A stretch of DNA of 64,000 nucleotides from the NCBI GenBank assembly GCA_043814985.1, contig JBDRJK010000019.1, positions 32,001-96,000 on the forward strand, given 5' to 3'. Numbering within the stretch: the first letter of the stretch is position 1; each line of letters begins with the position of its first letter. A model generated the notes under the pieces. That model did no database searches, was not told the DNA's origin, and saw only the letters and a list, made by a program, of their open reading frames with translations. This document shows positions 463 through 42,706 of the stretch, piece by piece. This stretch comes from Candidatus Aenigmatarchaeota archaeon. GTDB lineage: Archaea; Aenigmatarchaeota; Aenigmatarchaeia; Aenigmatarchaeales; Aenigmatarchaeaceae. The position numbers and the translations under genes are program-made.

Positions 463-1005
463 ATGGCCTTTAAAATAAAAATACAGAACATTGTTGCATG
501 CGCTTCTTTAGGCATTAAGATAAATCTTGATAAAGTTATGTCTAAAATTGATAATACTGAGTATGAACCAAACCAGTTTCCTGGTCTGGTTTTGAGATTA
601 AAACAACCAAAGGCAGCTGCTTTGATTTTTTCTTCGGGTAAAATTGTTTGCACGGGTGCCAAGTCTCCGAAAGAGGCAAAAATAGCTATATCAAAGGTTG
701 TTAAAAAGCTTGGGGGAATAGGATTCAAAGCTCCTGAAAAATATAAGGTCAATTTAGTAAATATTGTTGCTTCAACGAAGCTTGATTTGAAAATAAATTT
801 GAATAATATAGCATTTAATTTAGAGAATACGGAATACGAACCCAATCAGTTCCCAGGTTTGGTTTATAGAATGAGCGACCCCAAGGCTACATTCTTGTTG
901 TTCGGTGGTGGCAGTGTTATTTGTACAGGAGCTAAAAATGTTGCAGATGTAAGAAGGAGTATAGAAAAACTTTATAATGTTTTAAAGGAATTAAAGTGTG
1001 ATTAA
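463..1005 (+). CDS. tbp: TATA-box binding protein
   Basis: Two direct repeats NIVA...EYEPNQFPGLV...LIF/LLF..G..VCTGAK. Confidence 0.98.
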   Translation: MAFKIKIQNIVACASLGIKINLDKVMSKIDNTEYEPNQFPGLVLRLKQPKAAALIFSSGKIVCTGAKSPKEAKIAISKVVKKLGGIGFKAPEKYKVNLVNIVASTKLDLKINLNNIAFNLENTEYEPNQFPGLVYRMSDPKATFLLFGGGSVICTGAKNVADVRRSIEKLYNVLKELKCD

Positions 1006-1112
1006 CTCTCTTTGTTTTTTTAGATACTCTTATTCCCAGCACACGACTTCTTTTTGAGTCTAAACAATAGATATATAAACATTATTTTACTTTATTTTAA
1101 TAGTGAGTTAAT

Positions 1113-1271
1113 ATGACTTTGGAAGAAGACCTTTCATTAAAGAGTAAAAATGTAGTTGTTTCTGCAGAGAATGTAGTGTATGAAGTTGACGGTCCTTTGA
1201 CAAAAAAGAAAAAGAAATATAACGCACCAGATTTTAGAGAAATTTTGGTTACGGCCATGTCTCATTGTTGA
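1113..1271 (+). CDS. 52-aa putative RiPP precursor peptide (MTLEEDLSLKSKNVVVSAENVVYEVDGPLTKKKKKYNAPDFREILVTAMSHC)
   Basis: Translated by hand (below the ORF-track cutoff); TATA-like ATATATAAAC at 1071-1080; KKxYxxPxF motif; ends 11 nt before the PqqD gene. Confidence 0.8.
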   Translation: MTLEEDLSLKSKNVVVSAENVVYEVDGPLTKKKKKYNAPDFREILVTAMSHC

Positions 1272-1282
1272 AGTGATTCCCT

Positions 1283-1546
1283 ATGAAGCAGACGACAGAC
1301 CTTAACTCTAATCTTATTGTTAGAACAAAATTAAAGAAAGTGAATGATGTATACATTCTCCCCCCTGGCTATATTCTGAACGAAACAGGGGTAAAGGTGA
1401 TAGAATATTGTGATGGCAGACATAGCGTTAAAGACATCATCATGCTAATTTCAAGGGAATATAATGAAAGACCCACGGTTGTAAAAAAAGACGTGATGAA
1501 ATTTATCAAAAGATTATTGTTTTTGTCCGCATTGAAGGTGGTATGA
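1283..1546 (+). CDS. PqqD-family RiPP recognition element (RRE)
   Basis: 87 aa, LNETG..VIEYCDGRHSV..I...Y...KDV..F...L PqqD pattern; next to a radical SAM gene. Confidence 0.88.
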   Translation: MKQTTDLNSNLIVRTKLKKVNDVYILPPGYILNETGVKVIEYCDGRHSVKDIIMLISREYNERPTVVKKDVMKFIKRLLFLSALKVV

Positions 1547-1547
1547 A

Positions 1548-2687
1548 TTGAACAATGATGTAATTGTGACAGGTAGAGAAATAAAAAAGTTGTTCAAAAA
1601 GTATCCGCTGGTAAGGCTGGCCATATCTGTTACTAACTGCTGTAATTTGAGGTGTATCCATTGCAGTCAGAACGCGGGGAATGCACTAAAAGAGGAATAT
1701 TCCATCTCGGATCTTAAGCAAATAATAAAGGACACATGCGATGAAGGGTTATGTACTGTTGGAATTACTGGTGGCGAGCCGACCATTAGAAAGGACTTGT
1801 TGTCCATAATGAGATATGCTGACAGGAAGGATATTAGCCTAGTTTTGAACACTAACGGTACTTTGATAACTAGGAAAATGGCCAAGGACATATCAAAACT
1901 GTCCAATCTGAGGATTGTTGCTGTTAGCTTAGACGGTTCAAACCCGAAGACGCATGACAATATAAGAGGAGTTAGCAGGGCTTTCTCAAGAACGATAAAA
2001 GGTATAAAGAATCTGGTATCTGAGGGAGTTGAAGTCACTCTAGCATATACCATAATGAACAGAAACAAAGGAGAAATTGAAGACTTGATAAAACTGGCAA
2101 AGAAGTTGAAAGTTTCAATTGTGAGATTTCTGTTTATGGAGAATTTCGGACGCGCCAAGACGAACTCCGAAGAAATAGTTCCTTATCTAGAGCGTCGGAA
2201 TATCATTGCAAGGATAAATAGATTGTATAAAAAATACAAGAAAAATTTAACTATATGGGTCTATGCACCTCCTTCATTGCTGCCTAAATTTTTGAGAGAC
2301 AGTATGCCGTATACTGCTGGTTGCCTTCCGGGTGTTACAATTTGCGATTTGCTAGCTGACGGCACTATGTATCCTTGTTTAGGTCTTGTTGATTTTCCAG
2401 AGATGAAGATCGGAAATGTCTTGGACAAAAACATTTTAAAACTGTGGAATGGATCAAAAGTTTTAACCCAGTTCAGGAAGGTAACCCCACAGAAGCTGAA
2501 AGGCGTCTGTAGAGATTGCTATTTCTTGCTAAATTGTATGGGACATTGTAGGGCCGCGGCATACACTTTCGGGGGAAGTATTTTTGCACCTAATCCATGG
2601 TGTCAAGAGTATTTTGATAATAATAAATTCCCTAAAAAATATTACAAGAAGGGAAGACTAAAAATTAGAGATAGAAAGACCTCATAA
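1548..2687 (+). CDS. Radical SAM/SPASM peptide maturase
   Basis: CNLRCIHC, TGGEP, SLDG; C-terminal SPASM cysteines GC...YPC...CRDC.....C...C...PWC. Confidence 0.93.
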   Translation: MNNDVIVTGREIKKLFKKYPLVRLAISVTNCCNLRCIHCSQNAGNALKEEYSISDLKQIIKDTCDEGLCTVGITGGEPTIRKDLLSIMRYADRKDISLVLNTNGTLITRKMAKDISKLSNLRIVAVSLDGSNPKTHDNIRGVSRAFSRTIKGIKNLVSEGVEVTLAYTIMNRNKGEIEDLIKLAKKLKVSIVRFLFMENFGRAKTNSEEIVPYLERRNIIARINRLYKKYKKNLTIWVYAPPSLLPKFLRDSMPYTAGCLPGVTICDLLADGTMYPCLGLVDFPEMKIGNVLDKNILKLWNGSKVLTQFRKVTPQKLKGVCRDCYFLLNCMGHCRAAAYTFGGSIFAPNPWCQEYFDNNKFPKKYYKKGRLKIRDRKTS

Positions 2688-2842
2688 CATTCTTTTATCA
2701 CTACCTTTAAGTTATAAACAATTAGCTTTAAATACTCCCAGAACATATCTATCTAAAGTAAAGTACAAAGTTGTTAAAAAATAGCGTTAGTTTATTATAC
2801 TAATTCTATGACTTTTGTGACTTTAGTAAAAAACATTAAGGA

Positions 2843-5515: not shown

Positions 5516-5989
5516 ATGATAGAAAATAAGGTTGTGTTTGTCCCGCATTGTATTCTAAATCCTGCTATAAGGAATAATTCAAAATCAACAAAAGAAATTA
5601 TAGAACTTTTCACGAAATCAGATATAGGTATAATCCAATTGCCTTGTCCTGAATCGGAATACAATGGAAAACTGGTAAAACAATCAAAGAACAAAGAAAA
5701 ATACAGAGTTCATTGTAAGAAACTTTCCTTAAAGGTTATGAAAGATATTAGAAAATACTTGGATGCTAATTATAAGGTTCTTGGAATTTTGGGCGTTGAG
5801 TTTTCACCTACGTGTGGAGTCCATAGAATAAGAAATGGCAAAAGGAACGTTCCTGGAAAGGGCATTTTCATAGAGGAGTTGGAGAATGAAATGCAGAAAA
5901 ATAATTTCCAAGTGCCCCTTATAACGACAAACCTTCAAAACATTTTTTCAACTCTAGAGAAAATGAGTTTGCTAATAAAAAATTGTTGA
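5516..5989 (+). CDS. DUF523/TudS-related Fe-S protein
   Basis: HCILN, LPCPE, SPTCGV, GKGIFIEEL motifs. Confidence 0.75.
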   Translation: MIENKVVFVPHCILNPAIRNNSKSTKEIIELFTKSDIGIIQLPCPESEYNGKLVKQSKNKEKYRVHCKKLSLKVMKDIRKYLDANYKVLGILGVEFSPTCGVHRIRNGKRNVPGKGIFIEELENEMQKNNFQVPLITTNLQNIFSTLEKMSLLIKNC

Positions 5990-5998
5990 GGTGATAAT

Positions 5999-6202
5999 AT
6001 GGATGAATATATTATGAAAGATTCAGTCGGATATTCGCAGAGATCGTATCTGCAGCCTTCAGTCTCTTATTTCGGTGGGAACTTGGAGGCAGGGGAAAAC
6101 ACAGTCTCTGTACTGGCTAAAACAGCAGCTGCAATCGCTCTGGCGCTTGTCGGACTTGCTGCAACAGCGGCAAGAGGGTCTGAGAGCCCTCTAGATGGGT
6201 GA
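5999..6202 (+). CDS. 67-aa putative RiPP precursor with Ala/Leu-rich core
   Basis: GAGGTGA RBS; YLQPSVSYFG fits YxxPx(L/V)xxxG; overlaps the radical SAM start. Confidence 0.78.
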   Translation: MDEYIMKDSVGYSQRSYLQPSVSYFGGNLEAGENTVSVLAKTAAAIALALVGLAATAARGSESPLDG

Positions 6203-7292
6203 TTGCTTGTTTGACTTTCAGCAATTGGTTTCAGACCTTAGCGAGGACAAGCTTTTACCGTCTGTTCCAAGAAAGGGAAACCAAGTTGAGCTCTTGAAAA
6301 CCGCTGAAAGATTTTTCGAGGATATGAAAAACAAGAAGATATATCCTAGGGAGCTTGACAGCCCTTTGGGGTGCCAGTTAGAACTGACGCACAAGTGCAA
6401 TCTTAATTGCAAGCAGTGCTACAATATGTCCAACTGCCAAAAGCCTGACATTTCCTTCAAGAGATGGATGAACGTTGCAAAACAGCTAGTTGATATGAAC
6501 ATATTTGAATGTGTGATATCTGGTGGCGAGCCATTGTTACTTGGAGACAAATTATACGACTTAATGGATGTTCTACATGACAGTGGAATGAGATTCATAC
6601 TTGTCACAAACGGGATGCTCGTAGATAAACATGTGATTGACAAACTGAGCAAGTACGACTATTACTGGGTCCAAGTCAGCATCGATGGTTCAAGACCTGA
6701 GATACACGACAAGATAAGGGGTGTTAATGGAAGCTGGAAAAAAGCTGTCAATGCTGCAAAGATGGTGTCCCAGTCTGGAATGCCACTGGTCGTATCCCAT
6801 GTAATTCAGAGGGATAATGTAGACCACATAGATGAGATGATTGAGACATCTTACCTTTTGGGAGCTAGAAGACTGATAACTGGCAAGTTCACATATTCGG
6901 GAAGAGCAATATTGAACAAAAATGAAATAGATATCGAAGAAAACAAACTAAAGCAGGTTTTCAATCTCTTGAAAACAAGACACAGTCAATACACTGGGAG
7001 CATGGAGATAGTCACTTCCACAGATCCGGTTTTCTATCTCAGATACAGGGTTTTCGAGCCGTGCAACGTGCTTTTGATAAGACCCAATGGTGACGTAAAG
7101 CTGGATTGCATACTGCCGTTCAAGATAGGAAATGTTATGGAAGAGGGCATATCCAGTATGTGGAGTAGGACTGGAAAGTCAGCTTGGAGAAATGAGCAGG
7201 TCATAAAATACATAGATTCGATAAAGGAGGAGAGCGACATGCTAAGGATTAGGCCGAGGCCCTATATTGACGAAGATATTTTGATAAGGTGA
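6195..7292 (+). CDS. Radical SAM peptide maturase with truncated SPASM (twitch-like) domain
   Basis: CNLNCKQC, SGGEP, VSIDG; only two C-terminal Cys (PC...IRPNGDV..DC). Confidence 0.9.
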   Translation: MGDCLFDFQQLVSDLSEDKLLPSVPRKGNQVELLKTAERFFEDMKNKKIYPRELDSPLGCQLELTHKCNLNCKQCYNMSNCQKPDISFKRWMNVAKQLVDMNIFECVISGGEPLLLGDKLYDLMDVLHDSGMRFILVTNGMLVDKHVIDKLSKYDYYWVQVSIDGSRPEIHDKIRGVNGSWKKAVNAAKMVSQSGMPLVVSHVIQRDNVDHIDEMIETSYLLGARRLITGKFTYSGRAILNKNEIDIEENKLKQVFNLLKTRHSQYTGSMEIVTSTDPVFYLRYRVFEPCNVLLIRPNGDVKLDCILPFKIGNVMEEGISSMWSRTGKSAWRNEQVIKYIDSIKEESDMLRIRPRPYIDEDILIR

Positions 7293-7588
7293 GAAAAATG
7301 CATGACTATATTATAGACTTACTCAAACCTTTAATGCCTAAGAAAATAGAATCCAAAAAGATCAGGAATGACAGTGATTTCTTGATACTCAGGGAAAGGA
7401 ACAAGAAGATACTCATCCTGAACCCCACTGCAAGAGAAATCTATGAAATATGTGATGGCAGGACAGTGGGTCAAATCATAAATGCTATGAGTTCGGTTTA
7501 TCCTAGTATAGACAGGAAGAAAATATCTGTAGATGTCATAAGGTGTCTTAGGGATATGGAAAGAAGAGAACTGCTTTTAATGAGATGA
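7289..7588 (+). CDS. PqqD-family RRE
   Basis: LNPTAREIYEICDGRTV..I......YP.......DV...L. Confidence 0.88.
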   Translation: MRKMHDYIIDLLKPLMPKKIESKKIRNDSDFLILRERNKKILILNPTAREIYEICDGRTVGQIINAMSSVYPSIDRKKISVDVIRCLRDMERRELLLMR

Positions 7589-8328
7589 CCTTAATGAAGG
7601 AACTACCTGTAACATTTGAATGTAAAAAACAGCAGATAGTGGGCATATACCATCTTTCAAATAATAAAAACCCTCCAACAGTCATAATGTGCCATGGTTG
7701 GGGAGGAAATAAGCTAGGAACCTGGAACGGATTGTTTGTAAAGGCTGCCAGAGAGTTTTGCAAAAACGGTTTTTCAGTATTAAGGTTTGATTTCAGGGGC
7801 TCTGGAGATTCTCAGGGCGATTTTAATAAGCAAACAAACGACACCTTGCTAGAAGATTTGGATTGTGTGATAAACAGTATAGGTTCTGATGTTGGTCTTA
7901 TAGGCCATAGCTTAGGAGGCAAGGTTTCCATACTAAAAGCTTCTATGGATAAAAGAGTAAAATGCCTGGCAGCATGGGCCTCTCCCGTGCATAAGGACTT
8001 CTTTACTAAGTCATTTATTGAGGAAATAGAACAAAGAAAATTCATTTATTTCAATGAAATTGGTTATGGTGTCAGCAAGAAGCAGATAAACAGCTATTTG
8101 AGATATGATACTGTAAAAGCTGCAAAGAAGATTAAAACACCCTTTCTGATTGTTAATGGAAGCGAAGATACTTCAGTTTATCCTTCCCAGGCAAGGAAAT
8201 TGTATAAGAATACTAACCGGCTTAAAAAACTGGTCATAATAAACGGAGCTAATCATCTTTTTCTTAGCAAGGAAAAACAACTGATAAAGGTAACCCTGGA
8301 CTGGTTTAAAAAATATTTAAGAAAATAA
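7585..8328 (+). CDS. Alpha/beta-fold hydrolase (possible S9-like peptidase)
   Basis: HGWGG, FDFRGSGDS, GHSLGG nucleophile, G.ED, GANH; overlaps the PqqD stop. Confidence 0.88.
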   Translation: MTLMKELPVTFECKKQQIVGIYHLSNNKNPPTVIMCHGWGGNKLGTWNGLFVKAAREFCKNGFSVLRFDFRGSGDSQGDFNKQTNDTLLEDLDCVINSIGSDVGLIGHSLGGKVSILKASMDKRVKCLAAWASPVHKDFFTKSFIEEIEQRKFIYFNEIGYGVSKKQINSYLRYDTVKAAKKIKTPFLIVNGSEDTSVYPSQARKLYKNTNRLKKLVIINGANHLFLSKEKQLIKVTLDWFKKYLRK

Positions 8329-19976: not shown

Positions 19977-20477
19977 TCAGGAAAAACTAAGAAGAGACTG
20001 TATTTTTTCTATAGAACTGAAAATATTGTTCATGTTAACTCCCACTACTGGGACCTGGAAGTTCTTTTTCTGCATCTCCATTTCCAGCTCTTCCATGAAG
20101 ATGCCCTTGCCAGGAACATTCCTCTTTCCGTTCTGTATTCTGTGGACGCCGCATGTCTGCGAGAACTCGACGCCCAATATGCCGAGAACCTTGTAGTCGT
20201 TCCTAAGGTACAGCTCTATCTTTTTCATCACTTTAGAGGACAGCTTCTTGCAGTCATTCCTGTAGCCGTTAGTGGAATTTTTTGTTGTAGGCCTTCTGTT
20301 CAGACCGTTGTTGAACTCGAGCTGTGGGCAATCCAGTTGAACAATGCCTACACCAGCTTCTGCAAATACCTCTAACAAGTCTTTGACAGAACCTGTGTAC
20401 TTCTCCGTTCCTACTGCCATTGCATTTTGGTTCAGAAGACAATGTGATACGAACAGAACCTTTTTGTTCCTTTTCAT
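19977..20477 (-). CDS. DUF523/TudS-related protein, paralog of 5516-5989
   Basis: HCLLN, DCPQ, SQTCGV; C-terminal half nearly identical to the 5516 protein. Confidence 0.75.
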   Translation of the reverse strand: MKRNKKVLFVSHCLLNQNAMAVGTEKYTGSVKDLLEVFAEAGVGIVQLDCPQLEFNNGLNRRPTTKNSTNGYRNDCKKLSSKVMKKIELYLRNDYKVLGILGVEFSQTCGVHRIQNGKRNVPGKGIFMEELEMEMQKKNFQVPVVGVNMNNIFSSIEKIQSLLSFS

Positions 20478-21581: not shown

Positions 21582-21665
21582 AGTAGGGTTCGAAATTGAA
21601 GTGCTAACAAAATAATATAAGTATATACTGTGATATATATATTGAACAATATAAGAGGTGAAAAC

Positions 21666-22796
21666 ATGCGAAGCACGACAAATGAGACCTTACTTAGATA
21701 CCAGCAGGAAAGAAGGATAAACGGAATATCTGAAAACAGAAGAAGATTAGACATGACTGTCCTTGTAAGACTGGATGAATTTCTAGGTAAAGACTTTGAA
21801 AATACAAAAGAGGAGGACATAAAGGCTTTCTTCGAGCTTTTGGACATAAAACAGAGCACAAAGAACCAATACATAAGCATTTTGAAGAAGTTCTTTTCTT
21901 GGTTGGGTAAGCCAGAGGCTACAGACTGGCTCAAGTTGGGAAAAATAAAGACAACAATATTAAAGTCAGACCTGCCAACAGTTGATATTCTGAATAAAAT
22001 GATATCAAGAGCTGATAATTCAAGAGACAAGTGTCTTGTGGCTTTGAACTTTGATACTGGCGGAAGAATCAGTGAAGTTTTGAACATTCGTTTATTAGAC
22101 ATTCATCTTGAGAACGAATGTATAGAGATAGACATAAGGGTAAGCAAGACAGATATGCGTTCAGTTGTATGTTTTGACAGCATGCCATATCTTAAAGCCC
22201 ATCTCAAAGAGCATAAGTTCAGGGACAACATGGACAGCTATCTATTCTGTAGGAGCAACAACCCAAACAAACACATTTGTAAAGAAATGGCCCACAAAAT
22301 CATAACATATTACTCAGAATTGGTATGTGGAAGAAAATTCAGTCCTAAAATGTTCAGACACTTGAAAGCTAGTTTGTTGAGTAGTCAATTATCAGATAGC
22401 CATATGAAAAAATACTTTGGTTGGTGTATGGACAGCAAGATGTTAGCTCGGTATGTCCACTTAAGCAGCGATGATGTGATAAATCAATTGAAGCAACAGC
22501 AGGGACTAATAACAACCCCACAAGACAGAAATCCAATAATGCCTAGAACATGTTCAGAATGCCAAGCATTGAATCCAAGACACTTAGAATATTGTCAAAA
22601 ATGTGGATATGGATTAACAACAGGTGCAATAGAAAAGAGTTCAAGAATCAAAAAACTAGAGAAAATGGAAGGATTTCTGCATAAGATTTGCACAACACTT
22701 GCAGTCACAGATGACCATGCACTTTTGAACGCAGACCAGAAGAGATTCAACAAGGATTTGGTCAAAAAGGCACAAGAAGAACTAATGTTGAATTAG
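21666..22796 (+). CDS. Tyrosine recombinase/integrase with C-terminal zinc ribbon
   Basis: TGGRISE (R), SKT (K), PKMFRH, FGW, RYVHLS (Y); CSEC..CQKC; GAGGTGA RBS before ATG 21666. Confidence 0.93.
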   Translation: MRSTTNETLLRYQQERRINGISENRRRLDMTVLVRLDEFLGKDFENTKEEDIKAFFELLDIKQSTKNQYISILKKFFSWLGKPEATDWLKLGKIKTTILKSDLPTVDILNKMISRADNSRDKCLVALNFDTGGRISEVLNIRLLDIHLENECIEIDIRVSKTDMRSVVCFDSMPYLKAHLKEHKFRDNMDSYLFCRSNNPNKHICKEMAHKIITYYSELVCGRKFSPKMFRHLKASLLSSQLSDSHMKKYFGWCMDSKMLARYVHLSSDDVINQLKQQQGLITTPQDRNPIMPRTCSECQALNPRHLEYCQKCGYGLTTGAIEKSSRIKKLEKMEGFLHKICTTLAVTDDHALLNADQKRFNKDLVKKAQEELMLN

Positions 22797-22893
22797 GGGG
22801 GTTGGCTTTCTTTCTTTTTATCCTCCTAATAGAGTTAATAATATTATTAGAAATAACCATAGGGTTAAAAGCCTCACTTTTCATATTTCCAGT

Positions 22894-23112
22894 ATGAACA
22901 AAGTATTATTCGCTATATTTTTAACAGGAATCATACTTTCAGTTGTTGCAATATCTGGATGCACTACAGGAGCTTCTATAGTAAACCCATGCAGAGGTAG
23001 ATGTGATAGTGGATTTAATGAGTGCAATCGTAGATGCGGGCAGGGGATATTGAGCTCCATTTGTAAAGAAGTGTGTACATCAGATTATAACAAATGTTTA
23101 TCCTATTGTTAG
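22894..23112 (+). CDS. Small Cys-rich lipoprotein
   Basis: ISGC lipobox; eight further Cys in CX3C pairs. Confidence 0.7.
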   Translation: MNKVLFAIFLTGIILSVVAISGCTTGASIVNPCRGRCDSGFNECNRRCGQGILSSICKEVCTSDYNKCLSYC

Positions 23113-23120
23113 TGATTTAT

Positions 23121-23840
23121 ATGGCTAAAAAGAAAAAATGGTCTAAGCCTACTAAAATAATTGTTTCTGTTGTTGTGGTTCTTATAGCGATTACTATAAT
23201 TGGTAGTGCAGCTTCTGGTCGTTTCTTTATTCAATGTGAAAAAGAGGTTCAAGTGCCATATGATGCTCAAGAGACCTATACTGAGAATGAACCTTACATG
23301 TCAGAGGAATGTGAAACTGTTCAGGTCCCATATACAGATAAAATATGTCATAATATTCAAGTGCCTTATTCAGAAGAAGTATGTACCCAGAATTATTACA
23401 GTTATGCTGTTGAAAATAAAGGATATCATTATTGGAGTATAACTGATACAACTTGTTGGGTTCAGGCTGATATAGTAAATCATGAAGATAATGGAGGAAG
23501 TTTTATAGCCTATACTCATTTTGAATTGGTTGGTGAAGATTTTGTTTACAATCAGACACATTGGGTATATGCTAATTCAAAAAAGACTGTAAGGGCAACT
23601 TATGACTGTGCTATGGGTGAAGATATAAATTTGTACCATTTAACTATCAAACCACCATTGAAAACAGATTGTGAAACAGTTACTAAATACAGGTCTGAGC
23701 AAGAATGCAATGATGTTATAAAATACAGAAATGAACTACAATGTTCAGATGTTACAAAATATCGTGAAGTTGAAAAAACGAGAACAGTAACTAAGTATAA
23801 GACAGAAACAGAAAGCAGTTTCAGTGCTTGTTTCGATTAG
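23121..23840 (+). CDS. Membrane-anchored protein with 12-aa Cys repeats
   Basis: N-terminal TM; C...QVPY and C..VTKYR repeat blocks. Confidence 0.75.
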   Translation: MAKKKKWSKPTKIIVSVVVVLIAITIIGSAASGRFFIQCEKEVQVPYDAQETYTENEPYMSEECETVQVPYTDKICHNIQVPYSEEVCTQNYYSYAVENKGYHYWSITDTTCWVQADIVNHEDNGGSFIAYTHFELVGEDFVYNQTHWVYANSKKTVRATYDCAMGEDINLYHLTIKPPLKTDCETVTKYRSEQECNDVIKYRNELQCSDVTKYREVEKTRTVTKYKTETESSFSACFD

Positions 23841-23904
23841 TCTTTTAAATTCTCTTTGGTTTTAGTCAAATAAGCTTTTAAACATATAATTCTAAAGAAG
23901 AAGT

Positions 23905-24126
23905 ATGGGAATTCCCACAATACCTAAGGATTTTTATCCAGCCATGATAACTGTTTCTTTGTTTTTCATAAGCCTAAGTGTATTATTTTACTATCAGCCA
24001 AAAGATAGCCAAATATTTGAATTATCCATACCTCTGGCTCTTGTTTCTGTCCTTTCATTATTGTATTTTATTTACAAATGGTATGAAGAACGAAAACCTC
24101 GTAAATTCAAATTTTCACTACCTTGA
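23905..24126 (+). CDS. Small 2-TM membrane protein
   Basis: Two hydrophobic helices, own TATA box. Confidence 0.6.
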   Translation: MGIPTIPKDFYPAMITVSLFFISLSVLFYYQPKDSQIFELSIPLALVSVLSLLYFIYKWYEERKPRKFKFSLP

Positions 24127-24270
24127 GTGGTAGGGAAAACATATATTGATTTTTCTTGACATTCTAGGTATGGAAACATCACTATTAGCCCAAATAATCA
24201 AGATGGAAGGAAATTCTCAAAGGCTGGGTCAGGAGAACAATTAAATTCCTGAACTTTCTAAATATTTAGT

Positions 24271-24744
24271 ATGAAATACAGTGAAATATATTTAAAAAAA
24301 CTTGAAAGTCAAAACAAGTATCCATGGTCTACTTATGAATCTTTATCAAAAAAAATAAGTATATTACTTCAATTCTGTGATATAATCGATAAACACTTTG
24401 ATGAACTTGAGGAAAGTTTAAAATTAACAATAAAAAAATATGAGCTTGCTCCATGTAGCATGCTTTTAGAATACGTAATTCATGAAATTCAATCATTCTA
24501 TAGGCTTTCTTGGAAAAATAAAGAGAAAATAGGTATAACAGAAAAGGATTTTCCTGAATATCAGAATACAGTTTTAAGAAAATTTAGAGATAGAATAACC
24601 GGACATCTTGAGGACATGGATATGAAAGAATTTATAGAATTATATAGAGAAATTGATAAAATTGGGATTAAAAATATTTTAAAAGATTATTTAAAATTTA
24701 GAGATATAGTTATCAAAAAATTAAAAGATACGGAAAAGACTTAA
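24271..24744 (+). CDS. Hypothetical alpha-helical protein, possible HEPN domain
   Basis: RKFRDRITGH resembles the HEPN Rx4-6H motif. Confidence 0.5.
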   Translation: MKYSEIYLKKLESQNKYPWSTYESLSKKISILLQFCDIIDKHFDELEESLKLTIKKYELAPCSMLLEYVIHEIQSFYRLSWKNKEKIGITEKDFPEYQNTVLRKFRDRITGHLEDMDMKEFIELYREIDKIGIKNILKDYLKFRDIVIKKLKDTEKT

Positions 24745-24768
24745 ATCCTCGTTTTCCATATTTTTATT

Positions 24769-25152
24769 GTGAGTATTCTTGATAGATTTAGAAAAAAGAA
24801 GGAAGTAGATAAGAAAAAAATTCGATTAGAAAAGTTAAAAATGAGGGGTTTTACTCAAAGAAACGAAGATGAAGTTATGAAAAAAGAAGATATTTTAGGT
24901 TTTTGGTGTCATACTTGTGATAAAAATATAACAAAAAGAGACATAAGAAAACATCTAAAAAATAAACATAAAGTGTTTCTAGCAAAGTTTGGAGAAGAAA
25001 CAAAAATTATACATGTGTTAGATAATGATAAAAAACAAGAATTTCTAAAAATAGAGGAAGTAGCATTAAGAAAACACAAAAAAAAGACTAAAATGAAAAA
25101 AGAAAAGGTTACACCTGTAAAATACATCTTGGAATTATACTTAAAAGAATAA
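24769..25152 (+). CDS. Lys-rich protein with C2H2-like motif
   Basis: CHTC...HLKNKH. Confidence 0.55.
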   Translation: MSILDRFRKKKEVDKKKIRLEKLKMRGFTQRNEDEVMKKEDILGFWCHTCDKNITKRDIRKHLKNKHKVFLAKFGEETKIIHVLDNDKKQEFLKIEEVALRKHKKKTKMKKEKVTPVKYILELYLKE

Positions 25153-25184
25153 CCCTTAAATCCTTGTTTTTCTATAGATTTAGT

Positions 25185-25370
25185 GTGGGTGCCATACGAA
25201 TTTTAGGTCTAATCTTATTGATAGTAGGTATCATACTCTTAATTGGTCCGGTTCTTTTTTCATTTCTCGGTTTAGGTGGCTTCCTAATAACTGGAATTTT
25301 ATATGCGATTTTATTCGTCCCATCAATTATTTTAATTGTTGTGGGAGCATGGCTCTACGGAAAAAAATAA
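25185..25370 (+). CDS. Small 2-TM membrane protein
   Basis: GTG start 29 nt after TTAAA; two hydrophobic helices. Confidence 0.6.
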   Translation: MGAIRILGLILLIVGIILLIGPVLFSFLGLGGFLITGILYAILFVPSIILIVVGAWLYGKK

Positions 25371-25388
25371 GATTAGAATGGTTTTAGT

Positions 25389-26003
25389 ATGAAAAAAATA
25401 GCTTTGGTAGGCTTGATTTTATTTGTGGTTCTTATAGCTGGCTGTAGTCAAACTACTACAACTACTTCTGATACAGGTCAAGAAGCAACAAAACAAGAAA
25501 CACAAATTTACACGGGTAATACAGAAAATCTTCTACCTGAAAGAGATGAAATCAATACAGAATATGAAATATTAACAACTGAAGATTTCGATATAACTAA
25601 ATATTTTTCAAAATATCAAACAAAAGGTTTAATGACAACAGGATTTGAAAGTGGTAGTTATATGGAACATGAAATTTTGGAAGAATTTCCTAGAAACACC
25701 ATAACTGTAGGATACATTTTCATACTAAAGTTTGATTCTGTTGATAATGCCGATTTATTTTATACTACTATGATTGATATGATAAAAAACGAGGGTGGGT
25801 ATAAAGAGATAAGTTCTTTTTGGATAGATGCTGACTGTTTTGGTAAAGAAGGGTTTTATCCTGATTACCCCCTGAACAATTATTATCAAAATTTTTTCTG
25901 TAAAAAGAAGAACATCTTTTTCAATACAGAAACTTCAGGTTATAAAAAAAGCAGATTATCTGATTCTGAAGAATGGGCTAAAACAATAGCCGACAAAATT
26001 TGA
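25389..26003 (+). CDS. Lipoprotein
   Basis: MKK...LIAGC lipobox, Thr-rich linker. Confidence 0.75.
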   Translation: MKKIALVGLILFVVLIAGCSQTTTTTSDTGQEATKQETQIYTGNTENLLPERDEINTEYEILTTEDFDITKYFSKYQTKGLMTTGFESGSYMEHEILEEFPRNTITVGYIFILKFDSVDNADLFYTTMIDMIKNEGGYKEISSFWIDADCFGKEGFYPDYPLNNYYQNFFCKKKNIFFNTETSGYKKSRLSDSEEWAKTIADKI

Positions 26004-26008
26004 ATAGT

Positions 26009-26467
26009 ATGAAAATCCTAATAGCTATTTTGATTCTAGCAACAGTTTTGATAGCCGGGTGTATAAATGCACATTTGGATGTTTCTAAGTCTAAACAAGA
26101 ATTTAATTGTCCATTTGAAATGGAGATAAAAGATGCTATACAAAATAGATTTCTTTATCAAAAAGAATATGGAGCTAGTACGGAAGCTGCTCTTGTAAAT
26201 TGGAATATCTCAGACACATTACTTTTTCAAGATGATTATGAAACAAAATCAATGACTATAGTTTGTAGATATGGTTTAGAAAAAGGAGAAAATATAAACT
26301 ATCTTTATTGTCATTTTGGAATTTTTGATTATACAATCCAACAATTGATTGTGGATTCTCAAGACATCGTAAAAGAAAAAGTAGTACATAGGATACTAGA
26401 ACCTATAATTGTTGATACGAGTAATAACTTTACAGTTGTTGAATTGAAATGCCAAAAGGTTTCTTAG
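26009..26467 (+). CDS. Lipoprotein
   Basis: MK...LIAGC lipobox. Confidence 0.72.
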   Translation: MKILIAILILATVLIAGCINAHLDVSKSKQEFNCPFEMEIKDAIQNRFLYQKEYGASTEAALVNWNISDTLLFQDDYETKSMTIVCRYGLEKGENINYLYCHFGIFDYTIQQLIVDSQDIVKEKVVHRILEPIIVDTSNNFTVVELKCQKVS

Positions 26468-26706
26468 ATTCTCTCTGAAAAGAAGGTATTTTGGCAGTTA
26501 AAAGTCAATTTAACAGGTTGTAAGGCTGCACCTACCTTATGTGTAAGTGTTTAAATTCTCTTTCTTAAAAAAGGGGTAATTTTTTGACGATTTTTTTCGA
26601 TTCTTCAAATTTTTAGCGATAGAAAGCGATTTGATGATATTTTCAATTTTTTAAGCTTTAAATATCGCCACAAATGACCTATCTAAGCTAGGTAAGGTGA
26701 TTTAAT

Positions 26707-26988
26707 ATGGTAAGTGAAAGAAGAATAGAGGACATGAGCAGAGAAGAATTAATCCAAAAACTCAAAGAGACAGAGAATCTAGGTGTAAAAATGACCAGAC
26801 CAAATGACGACAGTAGAATTCAAATGAAATTGTCAGAGGACAGATTCGTTGCAGAACTGATGGACTTAGGTTTGTCAGAGAAATTAGCAACTAGACGATA
26901 TAAGGAATTTTTGAGACTAGGCGGTCTCAGTAATTTCGTCGTGCTGAAAAACGGGTCAGTTACAACCAAGAGAATTTCAAGGTATTAA
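26707..26988 (+). CDS. Hypothetical protein (element core operon)
   Basis: AGGTGA RBS; first of several tightly coupled ORFs. Confidence 0.65.
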   Translation: MVSERRIEDMSREELIQKLKETENLGVKMTRPNDDSRIQMKLSEDRFVAELMDLGLSEKLATRRYKEFLRLGGLSNFVVLKNGSVTTKRISRY

Positions 26989-26989
26989 C

Positions 26990-27151
26990 ATGACAAAAAA
27001 AGGATACTCCGTCTACTTAGGACGGGAGTTGAGCTTTATGGTAGACAAACTTATAGAAAACAACTGTGGAAAGGTCAACGATACACTTAGTGGATTGATA
27101 AAACGAGGAATTGACAGTTTCGAGAAAGAGATAATTAGGGGGAATAAATAA
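26990..27151 (+). CDS. 53-aa ribbon-helix-helix-like protein
   Basis: Hand translation KGYSVYLGRELSFMVDKLIE...SGLIKRGIDSF; stop overlaps the next ATG. Confidence 0.55.
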   Translation: MTKKGYSVYLGRELSFMVDKLIENNCGKVNDTLSGLIKRGIDSFEKEIIRGNK

Positions 27152-27546
27152 TGACAGACATACACTTTGAGAAATGGTTATACCAAAAATTCCAGAGCGA
27201 ATTTAAAAACAGTTTGAAAAAACAGAAGCAGAAAGCCAATGAGATTTTTGAGAAGCAGAAGAAGAAAAACGACAAAAGAAGGGAAGAAACACAGAAGATA
27301 GCCAGCAATGTTCTTGACAAATACCCTTTATTTGCCAATGGTGTGCAAGTGAAGGGTAAAATTACATGCAACAACAAACTTGAAGATGGTAAGCTATGTG
27401 ATTTCGAGTTTGAGCCTAAGAAAATGCTGTTGGATAGGGCACCAAACATCCAAGATGAGAATGAATTGCTGAAATACTTCTTGGGTATGGATTTGACTGC
27501 TATATGCAGGAAATGTGGGAAGACCTTGAAAATTTCATTGAGGTGA
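27151..27546 (+). CDS. Coiled-coil plus zinc-ribbon protein
   Basis: C.........C and CRKC. Confidence 0.6.
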   Translation: MTDIHFEKWLYQKFQSEFKNSLKKQKQKANEIFEKQKKKNDKRREETQKIASNVLDKYPLFANGVQVKGKITCNNKLEDGKLCDFEFEPKKMLLDRAPNIQDENELLKYFLGMDLTAICRKCGKTLKISLR

Positions 27547-27550
27547 TTGA

Positions 27551-27715
27551 ATGGACTATGATAAATTAGCTAAGAAAATTTCTAAGCATTTACAAAAGGA
27601 TTTTGTATCAAGAAAAGAATTTAAACAAATGGGCAAAGCTGTAGATACCTTGCTATTGATACATGATGAGGAAGCCAAGAAAATCAATGCTGATAAGATA
27701 AGATACATTGGCTAA
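27551..27715 (+). CDS. 54-aa hypothetical protein
   Basis: Hand translation MDYDKLAKK...RYIG; GAGGTGA RBS. Confidence 0.6.
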   Translation: MDYDKLAKKISKHLQKDFVSRKEFKQMGKAVDTLLLIHDEEAKKINADKIRYIG

Positions 27716-28433
27716 AAATATGAATAATAAGAATGTAAGAATTCAACGAATGCACAAAAAAGCTTATTTTGTACTTTACCATATGTTATTCTTGCTATCT
27801 GAGGAAGAATATAATCTTACATCACTCGCTAAAATTATCGGAGAAAGCAAACAAAACACTTTATTTCATCTTAAAAAAGCACAAAAGAAGGGATTGGTAA
27901 ACCAACATAGAGACACAAATTTCTGGTTCGTATTACCCAAAGGATTGGGGTCTATCCGACTATTGAAAGCTTTTGTCAAATCAAAGAAGAGAATACCTAA
28001 AAAATACATAGGAAAGAGACGTTTTCATGCTTTCAAGGTAAATGGTAAATTGGGAACTAAATTAGATACAAGACAGATTATAGAGCGTAATGGTGCGATT
28101 TTTGAGAATTCAGTCTATCAAGCTACTTATGGAATTGTGGTATGTGAGGATAATTTTGTTGCAACATCTAAAAAGCTTGGTTTGGCTACCTATACATTTG
28201 ATTATAGTGAAGTATATTCCATTTTTGATGAAATAATTAATAAAATTAATAAGGAAACTCCATTCAAGATAAAAACTTACGAGTGTGAGATGGAGGTTGC
28301 TGAACTTCTGGACCAAAAGGACATAATTCAGGATGCTGAAAATAATGAAGGTTACCTCTCAGAATACTATTGGTACGATAATAGCTGGGACTTCTTAGAA
28401 AGGGAATTTAGAACAGAATTTAAAGATGTCTAG
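27708..28433 (+). CDS. Winged-HTH domain protein
   Basis: NLTSLAKIIGESKQNTLFHLKKAQKKGLV. Confidence 0.65.
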   Translation: MAKNMNNKNVRIQRMHKKAYFVLYHMLFLLSEEEYNLTSLAKIIGESKQNTLFHLKKAQKKGLVNQHRDTNFWFVLPKGLGSIRLLKAFVKSKKRIPKKYIGKRRFHAFKVNGKLGTKLDTRQIIERNGAIFENSVYQATYGIVVCEDNFVATSKKLGLATYTFDYSEVYSIFDEIINKINKETPFKIKTYECEMEVAELLDQKDIIQDAENNEGYLSEYYWYDNSWDFLEREFRTEFKDV

Positions 28434-28776
28434 TGTTTTTCATCTGTAGGTCTTCTTTATCCTTTTGATGTTTAAATCCCAAAAGGGCAAAAAATATAGA
28501 AACTGAACAAAAAGCTACTCCTAATGCTAATAAAAAAGCTGAATTATTCAATGTAAATTTTGAGTCTTCTAGAAAAACATTTGATACAGAATCAAAACTT
28601 TCTTTTTGCTGTTCATAAATTTGTGGTTTTTCCAAATGTAAATCATTAGTATAAACAATGAAATCTAACCACTGACCACGTATACTAACAAAAGATGAGA
28701 ACATAAGACTGCAAATTATACCACTGAATCCTGCCAAAGTTGCCAATACTTTAGCAAATTCAAAGAATCTGTTCAC
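28420..28776 (-). CDS. 2-TM membrane protein
   Basis: Two hydrophobic helices; TATATAAA ~25-30 nt upstream of GTG. Confidence 0.6.
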   Translation of the reverse strand: MNRFFEFAKVLATLAGFSGIICSLMFSSFVSIRGQWLDFIVYTNDLHLEKPQIYEQQKESFDSVSNVFLEDSKFTLNNSAFLLALGVAFCSVSIFFALLGFKHQKDKEDLQMKNTRHL

Positions 28777-35007: not shown

Positions 35008-36084
35008 ATGCCTGAAATTGACATCAAAAAATTCTTGCTGGAGAAAAAGCCCACTATTGATAAAGTGGTTGAGAAGTGGATTCCCAAAAAATTTGACATG
35101 AATTTCATGGATTTTGTTTTTGGTAAAACAAGATACCAGTATAATGTTGATGTTGTTAACAAGACTATTACCGAGCCCATTTGGGAGTTTTTGGAAAGGG
35201 GAGGAAAGAGATGGAGACCATCTTTGTTCCTTCTAGTTGTGGAGGCTTTGGGTGGTGACAAGGAAAAGGTCTTTGACTTTGTTGTGATACCAGAAATAAT
35301 TCATAATGGGACTCTTTTTGTTGATGATATTGAGGACAGGAGCGAGTTGAGAAGAGGCAAGCCATGCATGCATTTGATGTACGGTATGGATGTGGCAATC
35401 AACACTGGCAACACTATGTATTATTTGCCTCTTTTGCCTCTGATCAAGCACAGAAAGGATTTTGATTCAAACATACTTCTTAATGTTTACGAGACTTATG
35501 TCCAGGAAATGATAAACCTGGGTCTTGGGCAGGCCATGGACATAGCTTGGCATAATGGCATATGCAATGCGGACAATCTCTCTGAGAAGGAATACTTACA
35601 GATGTGCGCTTTCAAGACAGGGACTTTGGCTAGGATGTCCGCCAAGATTGCTGCAATACTTTCAGGAGCTGATGACAAGCTTGTGGAAAATTTAGGCAAT
35701 TATGCTGAGACAATCGGTATAGCGTTCCAAATACAGGACGATGTACTGAACTTGGTTGAGGGAGAGTTCACGGAGAATAAGGGGCTTGGTGAAGATATAA
35801 CAGAGGGGAAGAGGAGCCTTTTGGTGATAAACACTTTAAACAAGGCAAGTCAAGAGGACAGGAAAAGACTTCTAGAGATTCTTGGCATGCATACTAATGT
35901 TCAGAAACTAAGGAATGAGGCAATATCCATAATCAAGAAATACGGTTCAATTGAGTATGCAAAGGAGAAGGCAAAAAAAATGATTATGGAGGCTTGGGAA
36001 GGCGTTGACAAACTTATTCCAGACTCGGATGCTAAGTTAAAGTTAAAGGCCTTTACTGATTACTTGGTTGATAGAAAAATATAA
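35008..36084 (+). CDS. Polyprenyl (geranylgeranyl) diphosphate synthase
   Basis: GGKR.RP, DDIED..RRG, GQ..D, KTG, FQIQDD. Confidence 0.93.
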   Translation: MPEIDIKKFLLEKKPTIDKVVEKWIPKKFDMNFMDFVFGKTRYQYNVDVVNKTITEPIWEFLERGGKRWRPSLFLLVVEALGGDKEKVFDFVVIPEIIHNGTLFVDDIEDRSELRRGKPCMHLMYGMDVAINTGNTMYYLPLLPLIKHRKDFDSNILLNVYETYVQEMINLGLGQAMDIAWHNGICNADNLSEKEYLQMCAFKTGTLARMSAKIAAILSGADDKLVENLGNYAETIGIAFQIQDDVLNLVEGEFTENKGLGEDITEGKRSLLVINTLNKASQEDRKRLLEILGMHTNVQKLRNEAISIIKKYGSIEYAKEKAKKMIMEAWEGVDKLIPDSDAKLKLKAFTDYLVDRKI

Positions 36085-36095
36085 GGAGGAATAAT

Positions 36096-36248
36096 ATGGA
36101 GAATGACAATCTAAAAATGGTTTTAATAGATGCATCTGATGGACAGTGGGTAACTGTACCTAAACCAATTTACGAGACAGTAATAGAGGATAAGGGTTTC
36201 CTTGAAGGAAGACTTTATCTGTTAAGAAAAGAACATCCTAGTTTATAA
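36096..36248 (+). CDS. 50-aa hypothetical protein
   Basis: AGGAGG RBS; hand translation MENDNLKMVLIDASDGQW... Confidence 0.5.
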   Translation: MENDNLKMVLIDASDGQWVTVPKPIYETVIEDKGFLEGRLYLLRKEHPSL

Positions 36249-36308
36249 TTAGCACCACCAAGGGTAGTAAATAAAATACATATTCCCTTAAATTGAATAC
36301 TACATGTT

Positions 36309-36617
36309 ATGTTCCAAAAAATATCAGGAAACGTTTTAACTCCTGAAAAAATCAAAATTTTATTGAAGCTTAATAATATCATGATAAAGTTTTCCCCCTT
36401 CGAGGACCATACAGAGTTCGGCAGAAAGATTGAGGGTGAATTGAAAAAGAGATTCGGTACACATGGTTTGGAGTATGATTCAGAAAGTAACAAGTTTAGA
36501 GTCGAGGAAGGGAAAATCAGATGCATAACTCACGACTGTGGGAGCACCTGTTGCAGCGGTCTAGGAGATATTTTTTATGTTAGTGGAGAAGAACTTCAAG
36601 AGATTGCGAAAAACTAA
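36309..36617 (+). CDS. Hypothetical protein
   Basis: ORF with a Cys cluster, overlapping the mevalonate kinase start. Confidence 0.45.
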   Translation: MFQKISGNVLTPEKIKILLKLNNIMIKFSPFEDHTEFGRKIEGELKKRFGTHGLEYDSESNKFRVEEGKIRCITHDCGSTCCSGLGDIFYVSGEELQEIAKN

Positions 36618-39400: not shown

Positions 39401-39430
39401 TGAACTCCATATACAAAAATCGTCAATAAA

Positions 39431-39754
39431 ATGATTGTAATGATTGCTGGTAGGGGAAAATATAAAGTTTGGCTAGAAAAGAAAAAGGTTGGCAAGGAGA
39501 CAGTTTTATTTTTGTTTGGTGGAGAAAAACCGCATGTAGGCTGTGTTATAATAGTTGAACCAAAGAGGAAAACTAAATTGATAAAATTTGATAACCATAA
39601 AGACTATATTGTTGCAAGACCTATTGCTGAAAAGTTTTGTAAAAAAACAAAGAGAAGAGTTGTTTGTGTTGCAGGAATCCATGTGGACAATGCGACAAAA
39701 GAAGAGATTAAGATTTTAGTTGACAACTGCAAAAAAATTGAGGAAAGGATATAG
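39431..39754 (+). CDS. LpdD-like prenylated-flavin chaperone
   Basis: GGEKPHVG, HKD, V.CVAGIHVDNATKEEI. Confidence 0.7.
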   Translation: MIVMIAGRGKYKVWLEKKKVGKETVLFLFGGEKPHVGCVIIVEPKRKTKLIKFDNHKDYIVARPIAEKFCKKTKRRVVCVAGIHVDNATKEEIKILVDNCKKIEERI

Positions 39755-42699: not shown

Positions 42700-42706
42700 G
42701 AATTTT

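What the first reader, a model, noticed from the sequence alone, without database searches (positions are those of the whole stretch)
1113..2687. RiPP cluster 1: hidden precursor with a very short C-terminal core, stand-alone RRE and rSAM/SPASM
Seen: a 52-aa ORF missing from the ORF track ends KKKKKYNAPDFREILVTAMSHC*, directly before PqqD and rSAM/SPASM genes. Established: KxxYxxPx(L) is an RRE docking motif (lasso-type leaders); PqqA/PqqD/PqqE and MftA/MftB/MftC turn a few precursor residues into small cofactors. Inference: the docking motif lies only ~11 residues from the C-terminus, so the product probably comes from the MSHC end (His-Cys or Cys-carbon crosslink, or C-terminal decarboxylation). 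That would be a peptide-derived small molecule or cofactor in a lineage where RiPPs are little studied. The cluster has no peptidase or exporter.
Basis: partly seen in the sequence, partly recalled or inferred. Interest (0 to 1): 0.82.

Follow-up and report, generated by a model that had tools for sequence, protein, structure and literature searches.

The report
Archaeal cysteine-tipped peptide-modifying cassette
A tiny-genome archaeon carries a rare three-gene unit (a 52-residue peptide ending in His-Cys, a peptide-docking protein and an iron-sulfur radical enzyme of an unnamed subfamily) that likely makes a short modified peptide, most likely by oxidising the terminal cysteine, but the chemistry and the product's role are untested.

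Summary
Observation confirmed: peptide (1113-1271), PqqD-family RRE (1283-1546) and radical SAM/SPASM enzyme (1548-2687) form one tight unit, present here but missing at the same site in a congener (1,678 bp). The enzyme is no haem enzyme (trees reject AhbC/AhbD; no haem genes found). It passes no curated family cut-off and is nearest to the uncharacterised ScmF branch. Only three close enzyme relatives (53-85%) and one RRE relative were found, with no peptide homologue and no reachable gene context, so conservation of S-H-C could not be tested. The YxxPxF motif sits 13 residues before the terminal Cys, matching the StsA register, so a C-terminal core is likely (0.8); short cores are ordinary, not novel. 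One unrelated cassette in the same class also has a KKYxxP peptide ending in Cys. Best guess at chemistry: Cys52 C-beta oxidation with decarboxylation (0.33); thioether ring 0.25; His or other chemistry 0.22. The cofactor idea lacks support (no PQQ or mycofactocin tailoring genes found). The scan noted other DPANN RiPP cassettes before, none on this DNA. New variant of a known kind; interest 0.42.

The parts
1072..1079 (+). TATA-like box (TATATAAA) ahead of the precursor gene; likely archaeal promoter
   Evidence: read from the sequence; function inferred
1103..1107 (+). GTGAG ribosome-binding-like word 5 nt before the precursor ATG
   Evidence: sequence; such words precede 22% of long ORFs and 8% of short intergenic ORFs in this genome
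1113..1271 (+). 52-aa precursor peptide gene, single Cys as last residue, TGA stop
   Evidence: no homologue found; no Sec machinery found, so TGA is read as stop
1209..1235 (+). K33-x-x-Y36-x-x-P39-x-F41, likely RRE recognition sequence
   Evidence: sequence; motif class from PMC12710340 section 7; binding not modelled
1254..1268 (+). A48-M-S-H-C52, likely core (P+9 to P+13)
   Evidence: inferred from register: StsA has P(-12) and first donor Cys2, i.e. P+13; own count
1283..1546 (+). 87-aa stand-alone PqqD-family RRE
   Evidence: PF05402 E=2.5e-10 over cut-off; below all six NCBIfam PqqD-type cut-offs; one relative at 64%
1548..2687 (+). 379-aa radical SAM/SPASM enzyme, TTG start, unnamed subfamily nearest ScmF
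1641..1664 (+). C32-x3-C36-x2-C39 SAM-cluster motif
   Evidence: invariant in 4 of 4 orthologues
2322..2603 (+). SPASM domain with eight Cys (259, 266, 277, 321, 324, 330, 334, 352), spacing 6-10-43-2-5-3-17
   Evidence: all eight invariant in 4 of 4 orthologues; an MftC over its cut-off has 6-10-40-2-5-3-17
1015..2692 (.). 1,678-bp segment absent from congener G002, where the TBP and DEAD-helicase genes are adjacent; junction on a 4-nt T run
7585..8328 (+). alpha/beta hydrolase (GHSLG at residue 107); weak candidate for a leader peptidase acting in trans, not shown to belong
   Evidence: found in G000 but not in three congeners that lack this cassette

Best explanation
The three genes form a minimal RiPP cassette in which the RRE likely binds the precursor's YxxPxF motif and the radical SAM/SPASM enzyme likely oxidises the terminal Cys52, most likely at C-beta with loss of CO2, which would leave a short peptide ending in His-enethiol. 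Step 1 (shown): a peptide gene, a PqqD-family gene and an intact rSAM/SPASM gene form one tight unit that is gained or lost as a block. Step 2 (inferred, about 0.85): the peptide is the enzyme's substrate and docks through Y36-x-x-P39-x-F41. Step 3 (inferred, about 0.8 overall): the target lies in A48-C52, because nothing else follows the docking motif at the known reach. Step 4 (inferred, 0.33 overall): the 5'-deoxyadenosyl radical takes an H from Cys52 C-beta; the fully Cys-ligated auxiliary clusters take the electron, giving a thioaldehyde that loses CO2 to an enethiol (-46 Da), or is trapped as a thio-oxazole or hydrolysed. Step 5 (speculative): a host peptidase trims the leader, and the product acts as a signal, narrow antagonist or metal ligand, not as a PQQ-type cofactor.
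For: Unit: gene spacing; block absence in G002. Not haem: AU tests reject joining AhbC (p 0.008), AhbD (0.003) or both (0.006); HemB, HemC, AhbA/B not found. Nearest kin are peptide-associated: the clade groups with ScmF-like enzymes (support 94-97), the nearest Atlas model is an ScmF cluster (TM 0.87), and the top solved folds are SkfB, SuiB and PqqE. Register: Cys52 is P+13, as the first donor Cys of StsA. Terminal Cys: among 192 distinct rSAM ORFs in the fetched loci, 6 have an upstream short [KR][YF]xxP ORF, and 2 of the 5 other than this one end in Cys against 3.2% background (p about 0.01, post hoc). One is a 20-aa peptide in the same class (G132, Cys at P+12) beside an enzyme with eight SPASM Cys in MftC-like positions. 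Eight invariant SPASM Cys with MftC spacing; fully ligated clusters occur in anSME, SuiB and PqqE, an open site in the thioether makers CteB and SkfB (PMC6231123 passages). Precedents: MftC decarboxylates a C-terminal residue (PMC10288494); anSME and SbtM oxidise Cys through a thioaldehyde (PMC13638132 passages).
Against: No orthologous precursor was found, so neither Cys52 nor His51 is shown to be conserved. The six catalytic-site residues (S-T-N-S-L-G) match MftC (L-G-S-S-P-F) at only 1 of 6 positions, and a clade with MftC is rejected (p 0.027). The G132 enzyme is not an orthologue (p 0.031), so its terminal Cys is an analogy. Three of three ScmF-like relatives counted also have eight or more SPASM-region Cys, one beside a Cys-rich precursor (L120), and SkfB shows an open site despite four predicted ligands, so eight Cys does not exclude thioether chemistry. 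In all cases I read, C-terminal Cys decarboxylation is done by flavoproteins (PMC10989515 passages). Full-length similarity has mispredicted function in this clan before (StsB). Codon-use support for the ORF is modest.
Confidence: 0.33

Rival explanations
1. Same cassette, but the enzyme closes a small thioether ring from the Cys52 sulfur to a carbon of M49, S50, A48 or T47 (sacti- or ranthipeptide type, -2 Da).
For: Thioether formation is the commonest fate of Cys in rSAM RiPPs (my knowledge). NxxcB links Cys to an upstream Asn and QmpB makes rings with one intervening residue (PMC13361665 section 13). SycC acts on a 22-aa precursor ending in Cys, at the residue three upstream (PMC10989515). 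StsB is a thioether maker within the MftC-like group, with the same P+13 register. The ScmF sister group has a Cys-rich precursor (L120).
Against: Eight invariant SPASM Cys leave no evident open iron site. Catalytic-site residues S-T-N-S-L-G match StsB (Y-T-I-S-K-L) at 2 of 6 and CteB (F-F-T-S-H-Q) at 1 of 6 (my mapping of positions). The upstream-acceptor enzymes are described as CteB/ranthisynthase-like, and CteB ranks below SkfB, PqqE, anSME and SuiB by sequence. No Asn, Asp or Gly acceptor is present in the core.
Confidence: 0.25
2. Same cassette, but the chemistry is centred on His51 or another core residue: a His-to-aliphatic C-C or N-C crosslink, dehydrogenation, epimerisation or an ether, with Cys52 incidental.
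For: Fully ligated SPASM enzymes SuiB and PqqE are C-C crosslinkers and are top fold matches. WgkB and WgkC models are among the best sub-threshold hits. His-containing products are known: didehydrohistidine in GRC and a His-Tyr link in dynobactin.
Against: His51 has only one residue after it, so a three-residue cyclophane towards the C-terminus is impossible (sequence; motif rule recalled). The G132 analogue has no His but keeps the terminal Cys.
Confidence: 0.22
3. The 52-aa ORF is not the substrate: it is a chance ORF, a regulatory leader peptide or a relic, and the RRE/rSAM pair acts on something else or is idle.
For: No homologue found; modest codon score; 23 of 30 PqqD-like loci fetched from this class have no rSAM within 1.5 kb, so PqqD-like genes here are often not RiPP genes; earlier unchecked notes report leader uORFs in this genome.
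Against: Promoter-like and ribosome-binding-like signals; the motif is at the expected place; only 14 of 2,046 intergenic ORFs carry it; it lies inside the block missing from G002; both enzyme and RRE are intact and conserved in relatives.
Confidence: 0.15
4. The product is a PQQ- or mycofactocin-like redox cofactor cut out of the last residues.
For: Same three-part architecture; SPASM Cys spacing as in MftC.
Against: No tailoring genes in the unit; PF02633, PF03070 and PF01523 not found in the genome (91% complete); no Tyr in the core; patchy presence: no orthologue in 370 other genomes of the phylum; scores far below the MftC and PqqE cut-offs (133 of 265; 122 of 381).
Confidence: 0.04
5. 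The enzyme is an AhbC/AhbD/NirJ haem enzyme and the neighbours are incidental.
For: AhbD and NirJ2 models are second and third best hits (187 and 186 bits).
Against: Cut-offs are 500 bits; AU tests reject the grouping; HemB, HemC and AhbA/B not found; AhbD's Arg after the SAM motif is Ser here (7 of 7 AhbD-like rows have Arg).
Confidence: 0.01

Closest known systems
SynChlorMet cassette (ScmD RRE TIGR04248, ScmE/ScmF rSAM TIGR04250/TIGR04251, ScmC TIGR04249)
   Same: ScmF is the best profile hit, the sister branch in both trees and the nearest predicted structure; discrete RRE; a ScmEF locus fetched here has a precursor with a YxxP motif (L120).
   Different: 191 of 400 bits; one rSAM, not two; no ScmC; single terminal Cys rather than a Cys-rich core; different catalytic-site residues (S-T-N-S-L-G against mostly W-T-E-S-G-I). 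The term SynChlorMet was in 0 papers of the library.
Mycofactocin MftA/MftB/MftC
   Same: Precursor, discrete RRE, rSAM/SPASM; same eight-Cys spacing; modification at the extreme C-terminus.
   Different: Needs C-terminal Val-Tyr; here His-Cys. 133 of 265 bits; clade rejected; no MftE-type gene found.
StsA/StsB/StsC sactipeptide system
   Same: Discrete RRE binding a WxxP motif, first Cys at P+13, enzyme of the MftC-like group.
   Different: StsA has three Cys-Gly hairpin links; here one terminal Cys and no Gly in the core; 132 of 625 bits; catalytic-site match 2 of 6.
SycA/SycC/SycD (AviCamCys) and NxxcA/NxxcB
   Same: Short precursor ending in Cys, processed by an rSAM/SPASM enzyme.
   Different: Acceptor is Asn three residues upstream (here Met); decarboxylation needs a LanD-like flavoprotein, absent from this unit; enzymes are CteB-like.
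WgkABC / WprABC and PqqA/PqqD/PqqE
   Same: Three-part precursor/rSAM/discrete RRE layout with a short C-terminal core; some WprB-related enzymes are archaeal (PMC11851443 passage).
   Different: Cores use Trp-Lys/Arg or Glu-Tyr; neither is present; all below cut-offs.

Membership tests
RRE-dependent rSAM/SPASM RiPP cluster | rSAM with CxxxCxxC and SPASM domain | tested here: met
RRE-dependent rSAM/SPASM RiPP cluster | PqqD-family RRE within three ORFs | tested here: met
   PF05402 over cut-off, adjacent; criterion from PMC10288494
RRE-dependent rSAM/SPASM RiPP cluster | RRE fold (three strands, three helices) | tested here: inconclusive
   model from a 2-row alignment had pLDDT 43.6
RRE-dependent rSAM/SPASM RiPP cluster | Adjacent short ORF with a W/Y/LxxP recognition sequence | tested here: met
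RRE-dependent rSAM/SPASM RiPP cluster | Precursor conserved beside orthologous enzymes | tested here: inconclusive
   3 close enzyme relatives, no context reached; no peptide homologue
RRE-dependent rSAM/SPASM RiPP cluster | Enzyme modifies the peptide | not testable with these tools
   needs co-expression and MS
SynChlorMet (ScmF) | TIGR04251 score of at least 400 | tested here: not met
   191 bits; orthologues 194-199
SynChlorMet (ScmF) | Paired ScmE and ScmC in the cassette | tested here: not met
   neighbours are TBP and a DEAD helicase
Mycofactocin | TIGR03962 cut-off and C-terminal Val-Tyr precursor | tested here: not met
   133 of 265 bits; precursor ends His-Cys; p-AU 0.027
PQQ | PqqE cut-off and PqqC-type oxidase | tested here: not met
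   122 of 381 bits; PF03070 not found
AhbC/AhbD/NirJ haem enzymes | Curated cut-offs, clade membership, haem pathway in genome | tested here: not met
Sactipeptide/ranthipeptide | Cys donor in the core | tested here: met
   Cys52
Sactipeptide/ranthipeptide | Sactisynthase-type catalytic-site residues or open auxiliary site | tested here: inconclusive
   2 of 6 with StsB, 1 of 6 with CteB; eight SPASM Cys; the paper's figure supplement with other profiles could not be read
Selenocysteine-extended precursor | SelD and SepSecS in the genome to read the TGA after Cys52 | tested here: not met
   neither found (91% complete)

The most novel reading that the evidence does not exclude
A flavin-independent, radical-SAM route to C-terminal cysteine decarboxylation: one enzyme turns the His-Cys tail into a His-enethiol (or thio-oxazole) N,S metal-binding head. 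It would have arisen at least twice in DPANN archaea with minimal KKYxxP...Cys precursors, and be the first RiPP chemistry defined from a symbiotic DPANN lineage.
Probability: 0.17. Interest if true: 0.75.

Novelty: new variant of a known kind. Interest (0 to 1): 0.42.

Why it matters
The layout is textbook, but the enzyme belongs to no named family, sits beside the uncharacterised ScmF branch, and comes with a one-cysteine substrate whose possible target is only five residues long. That makes it a clean test system: one co-expression and a mass spectrum would separate the candidate chemistries and give a first handle on the ScmF clan. It also shows that a 0.8-Mb archaeon keeps two separate rSAM RiPP cassettes within 7 kb. 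Against high interest: the family is very small (4 enzyme sequences found), the product and its role are unknown, and this scan has already noted several other DPANN RiPP cassettes.

Tried and rejected
Gene context of the three close enzyme relatives was not reached. The metagenome and genome collection scans used generic peptide patterns and returned 80 loci each at 26-38% identity, all distant. Class, order and phylum searches (371, 42, 371 genomes; the phylum is the same 371) found nothing above 215 bits against 748 for G000. Viral scans found no relative; plasmid hits were all below 60% identity, the 15 listed at 26-34%. The cluster-member look-up could not be made. Peptide searches: 1 of 1 candidate was itself; 3 hits among 1.84 billion, itself and two low-complexity repeat proteins judged spurious; no usable Atlas hit. 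Class-wide DNA pattern for KK[YF]xxP-(9-14)-C-stop: 312 matches in 197 of 371 genomes, mostly chance. I picked in-frame matches by eye and fetched 22; none of the 22 had an rSAM or RRE within about 2.5 kb; the only two beside such genes are G000 and G132. The G132 enzyme had no close relative in 60 other genomes, and its peptide gave no BLASTP alignment with this one. RRE-peptide complex: the prediction queue was full, so binding was not modelled. RRE fold model was uninformative. No RNA holder was listed; four further runs laid nothing; neither bears on expression. Selenocysteine read-through rejected. 'Recent insertion into G000' was considered and dropped: G001 shares the TBP terminator tail up to 1029 with G000 while G002 lacks it, so loss in G002 is as likely. 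The bacterial promoter scan does not apply to an archaeon. Literature: eight searches listed no paper on this subfamily or on an rSAM that decarboxylates a terminal Cys; the library lacks most subscription papers.

Full report
1. Observation. The window lies in an 808-kb archaeal genome, 91% complete, in a phylum held as one class of 371 genomes. The three ORFs are as described: a 52-aa peptide (1113-1271), an 87-aa PqqD-family protein (PF05402, E 2.5e-10) and a 379-aa radical SAM/SPASM protein. Gaps are 11 and 1 nt, each start has a ribosome-binding-like word, and a TATA-like box precedes the first gene (read from the sequence). Contigs of two studies repeat the peptide gene with no difference (one may be the source). 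Of 2,046 short intergenic ORFs in the genome, 14 have a [KR][YF]xxP motif near their end and only this one also ends in Cys; its codon score ranks 56 of 411. SelD and SepSecS were not found, so the TGA is a stop.

2. The unit moves as a block. In congener G002 (TBP 93%, helicase 95% identical) the two flanking genes are adjacent; 1,678 bp are missing, with a 4-nt T run at the junction. G001 has a third arrangement and shares the TBP terminator tail with G000, so the direction (gain or loss) is open. No orthologue was found in the other 370 genomes (best 215 bits against 748).

3. The enzyme. Of 120 hits among 3,702 candidates, three are close (85, 64, 53%) and the next are 33-34%. The RRE has one relative (64%; 2 hits of 4 candidates). 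None of the 25 best NCBIfam families reaches its cut-off; ScmF is best at 191 of 400 bits. A 314-row FastTree and a 49-row IQ-TREE both place the four orthologues with two further proteins beside ScmF-like enzymes (support 97 and 94; the second is not starred, and the tool flags long branches). AU tests on the 49 rows reject joining AhbC (p 0.008), AhbD (0.003), both (0.006), MftC-like rows (0.027) and the G132 enzyme (0.031). Group labels came from source names or profile scores (one search checked a few: P0100 and L102 pass their cut-offs; L144, L022 and L120 fall short). HemB, HemC and AhbA/B were not found. The model is confident (pLDDT 90.7); its best solved matches are SkfB, SuiB and PqqE and its nearest Atlas model is an ScmF cluster (TM 0.87).

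4. The precursor. No homologue was found, and the contexts of the three orthologues were out of reach, so conservation of S-H-C is untested. The motif class W/Y/LxxP is shared by lasso, PQQ and sactipeptide RREs and says nothing on product class (PMC12710340, section 7 read). It does fix a register: StsA has P(-12) and its first donor Cys at position 2, i.e. P+13; here Cys52 is P+13. Only A48-C52 lie in that reach, so a very short core is likely and ordinary. Among 192 distinct rSAM ORFs in the loci I fetched, 6 have an upstream short [KR][YF]xxP ORF; 3 end in Cys (this one, a 20-aa peptide in G132, a 53-aa peptide in a Chloroflexota locus) against 3.2% background (post hoc, p about 0.01 without this one). 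Two of the other three stand beside haem-type enzymes and are probably chance. A class-wide pattern search added no further case (0 of 22 fetched). The precursors of the second cassette (five sequences) and of L120 carry YxxP and do not end in Cys.

5. Mechanism. The SPASM domain has eight invariant Cys with the spacing of an MftC. Fully ligated clusters are reported for anSME, SuiB and PqqE, open sites for CteB and SkfB (PMC6231123 passages; PMC10452713 passages). This leans away from sulfur activation on iron, but weakly: ScmF-like relatives also have eight Cys and SkfB defied the count. The six catalytic-site residues defined in PMC10288494 (parts 2-4 of 8 read) are S-T-N-S-L-G by my mapping, invariant in the four orthologues, and match StsB at 2, CteB at 1 and MftC at 1 of 6; the enzyme resembles no characterised type. 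A substrate whose only Cys is the last residue suits a reaction that needs the free carboxylate. MftC decarboxylates its terminal residue; anSME and SbtM oxidise Cys through a thioaldehyde (PMC13638132 passages); LanD-type flavoproteins give an enethiol from a terminal Cys (PMC10989515 passages). I therefore commit to C-beta oxidation of Cys52 with decarboxylation (0.33), ahead of a thioether ring of NxxcB/SycC/QmpB type (0.25; PMC13361665 section 13) and His-centred or other chemistry (0.22). These three share steps 1-3 (0.8 together). Not a substrate: 0.15. Cofactor: 0.04, since MftE-, PqqC- and TldD-type families were not found. An alpha/beta hydrolase 5 kb away is present in G000 and not in three congeners; it is a weak candidate for leader removal (S9 proteases in RiPP pathways: bioRxiv 10.1101/2025.10.18.683210, listing only).

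6. What is known. The architecture equals PqqA/D/E, MftA/B/C, StsA/C/B and WgkABC/WprABC (PMC11851443 and PMC8326336 passages; PMC10114670 part 1 of 5). It is a member of none by cut-off or core motif. Archaeal rSAM thioether chemistry has a precedent in CrpC (PMC13692751, abstract only). Passages of PMC9062424 and PMC9389541 added nothing specific. The spreadsheet of PMC10288494 gave 0 hits for six archaeal terms (it may not list organisms); its PDF supplement, which holds further catalytic-site profiles, could not be read and may bear on the chemistry. Eight literature searches listed no paper on this subfamily. The scan's own notes hold no look-alike DNA or protein but at least seven other RiPP-like cassettes of DPANN or CPR genomes (unchecked), which lowers the surprise of the lineage.

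7. Verdict. A real, rare, likely functional RiPP cassette with an unnamed maturase and an unusually simple substrate. New variant of a known kind; interest 0.42. Most novel open reading: a radical-SAM cysteine decarboxylase making a His-enethiol head (0.17; interest 0.75 if true).

Noticed in passing
window 5999-7588: Second rSAM RiPP cassette: 67-aa peptide with YxxP and an Ala-rich hydrophobic tail, an rSAM with only two Cys after residue 200 (twitch-like or degenerate SPASM) and an RRE. Conserved in all three congeners; G002 has two tandem precursors.
   Followed up: partly
window 7585-8328: Alpha/beta hydrolase appended to the second cassette only in G000; not found in G001-G003; G132 has a 37% relative. 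It tracks the first cassette, not the second, in this sample of four genomes.
   Followed up: partly
L271:6276-9897 (G132:C11, - strand): Five-gene cassette: 20-aa KKYxxP peptide ending in Cys, rSAM/SPASM, GNAT, amidohydrolase, RRE fused to a metallo-beta-lactamase fold. A similar RRE-MBL fusion stands without the cassette in G362 (L272).
   Followed up: partly
window 1005-1030: The site after the TBP gene is variable: RiPP cassette in G000, DEAD helicase in G002, an isopropylmalate-synthase-like gene in G001 (name from my reading of the sequence). G000 and its congeners G001 and G002 appear to have a second TBP paralogue (two matches in G001 and G002).
   Followed up: partly
L200-L229: 23 of 30 PqqD-like loci fetched from this class have no rSAM nearby; many sit beside a PRC-barrel-like or housekeeping gene (label recalled), suggesting a non-RiPP role for stand-alone PqqD-like proteins.
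   Followed up: no
L277 (G057:C9:6000-25000): Thirteen rSAM-like genes in tandem beside glycosyltransferase-like genes.
   Followed up: no
L273:3040-4507 (G217:C9): 51-aa Pro-rich ORF directly before an rSAM/SPASM gene that converges on an RRE gene; possible further RiPP cassette.
   Followed up: no
window 35008-43747: Isoprenoid gene block: polyprenyl synthase, GHMP kinase, flavoprotein (UbiX-like), UbiD, both aconitase X subunits, amino-acid-kinase family, NUDIX, FMN-dependent enzyme; looks like the archaeal modified mevalonate pathway (recalled).
   Followed up: no
window 21630-28776: Phage-type integrase followed by about nine ORFs without useful Pfam match; possible integrated element.
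   Followed up: no
window 5516-5989 and 19977-20477: Two copies of a TudS-related (2-thiouracil desulfurase-like) gene; the first directly precedes the second RiPP cassette in all four congeners.
   Followed up: no
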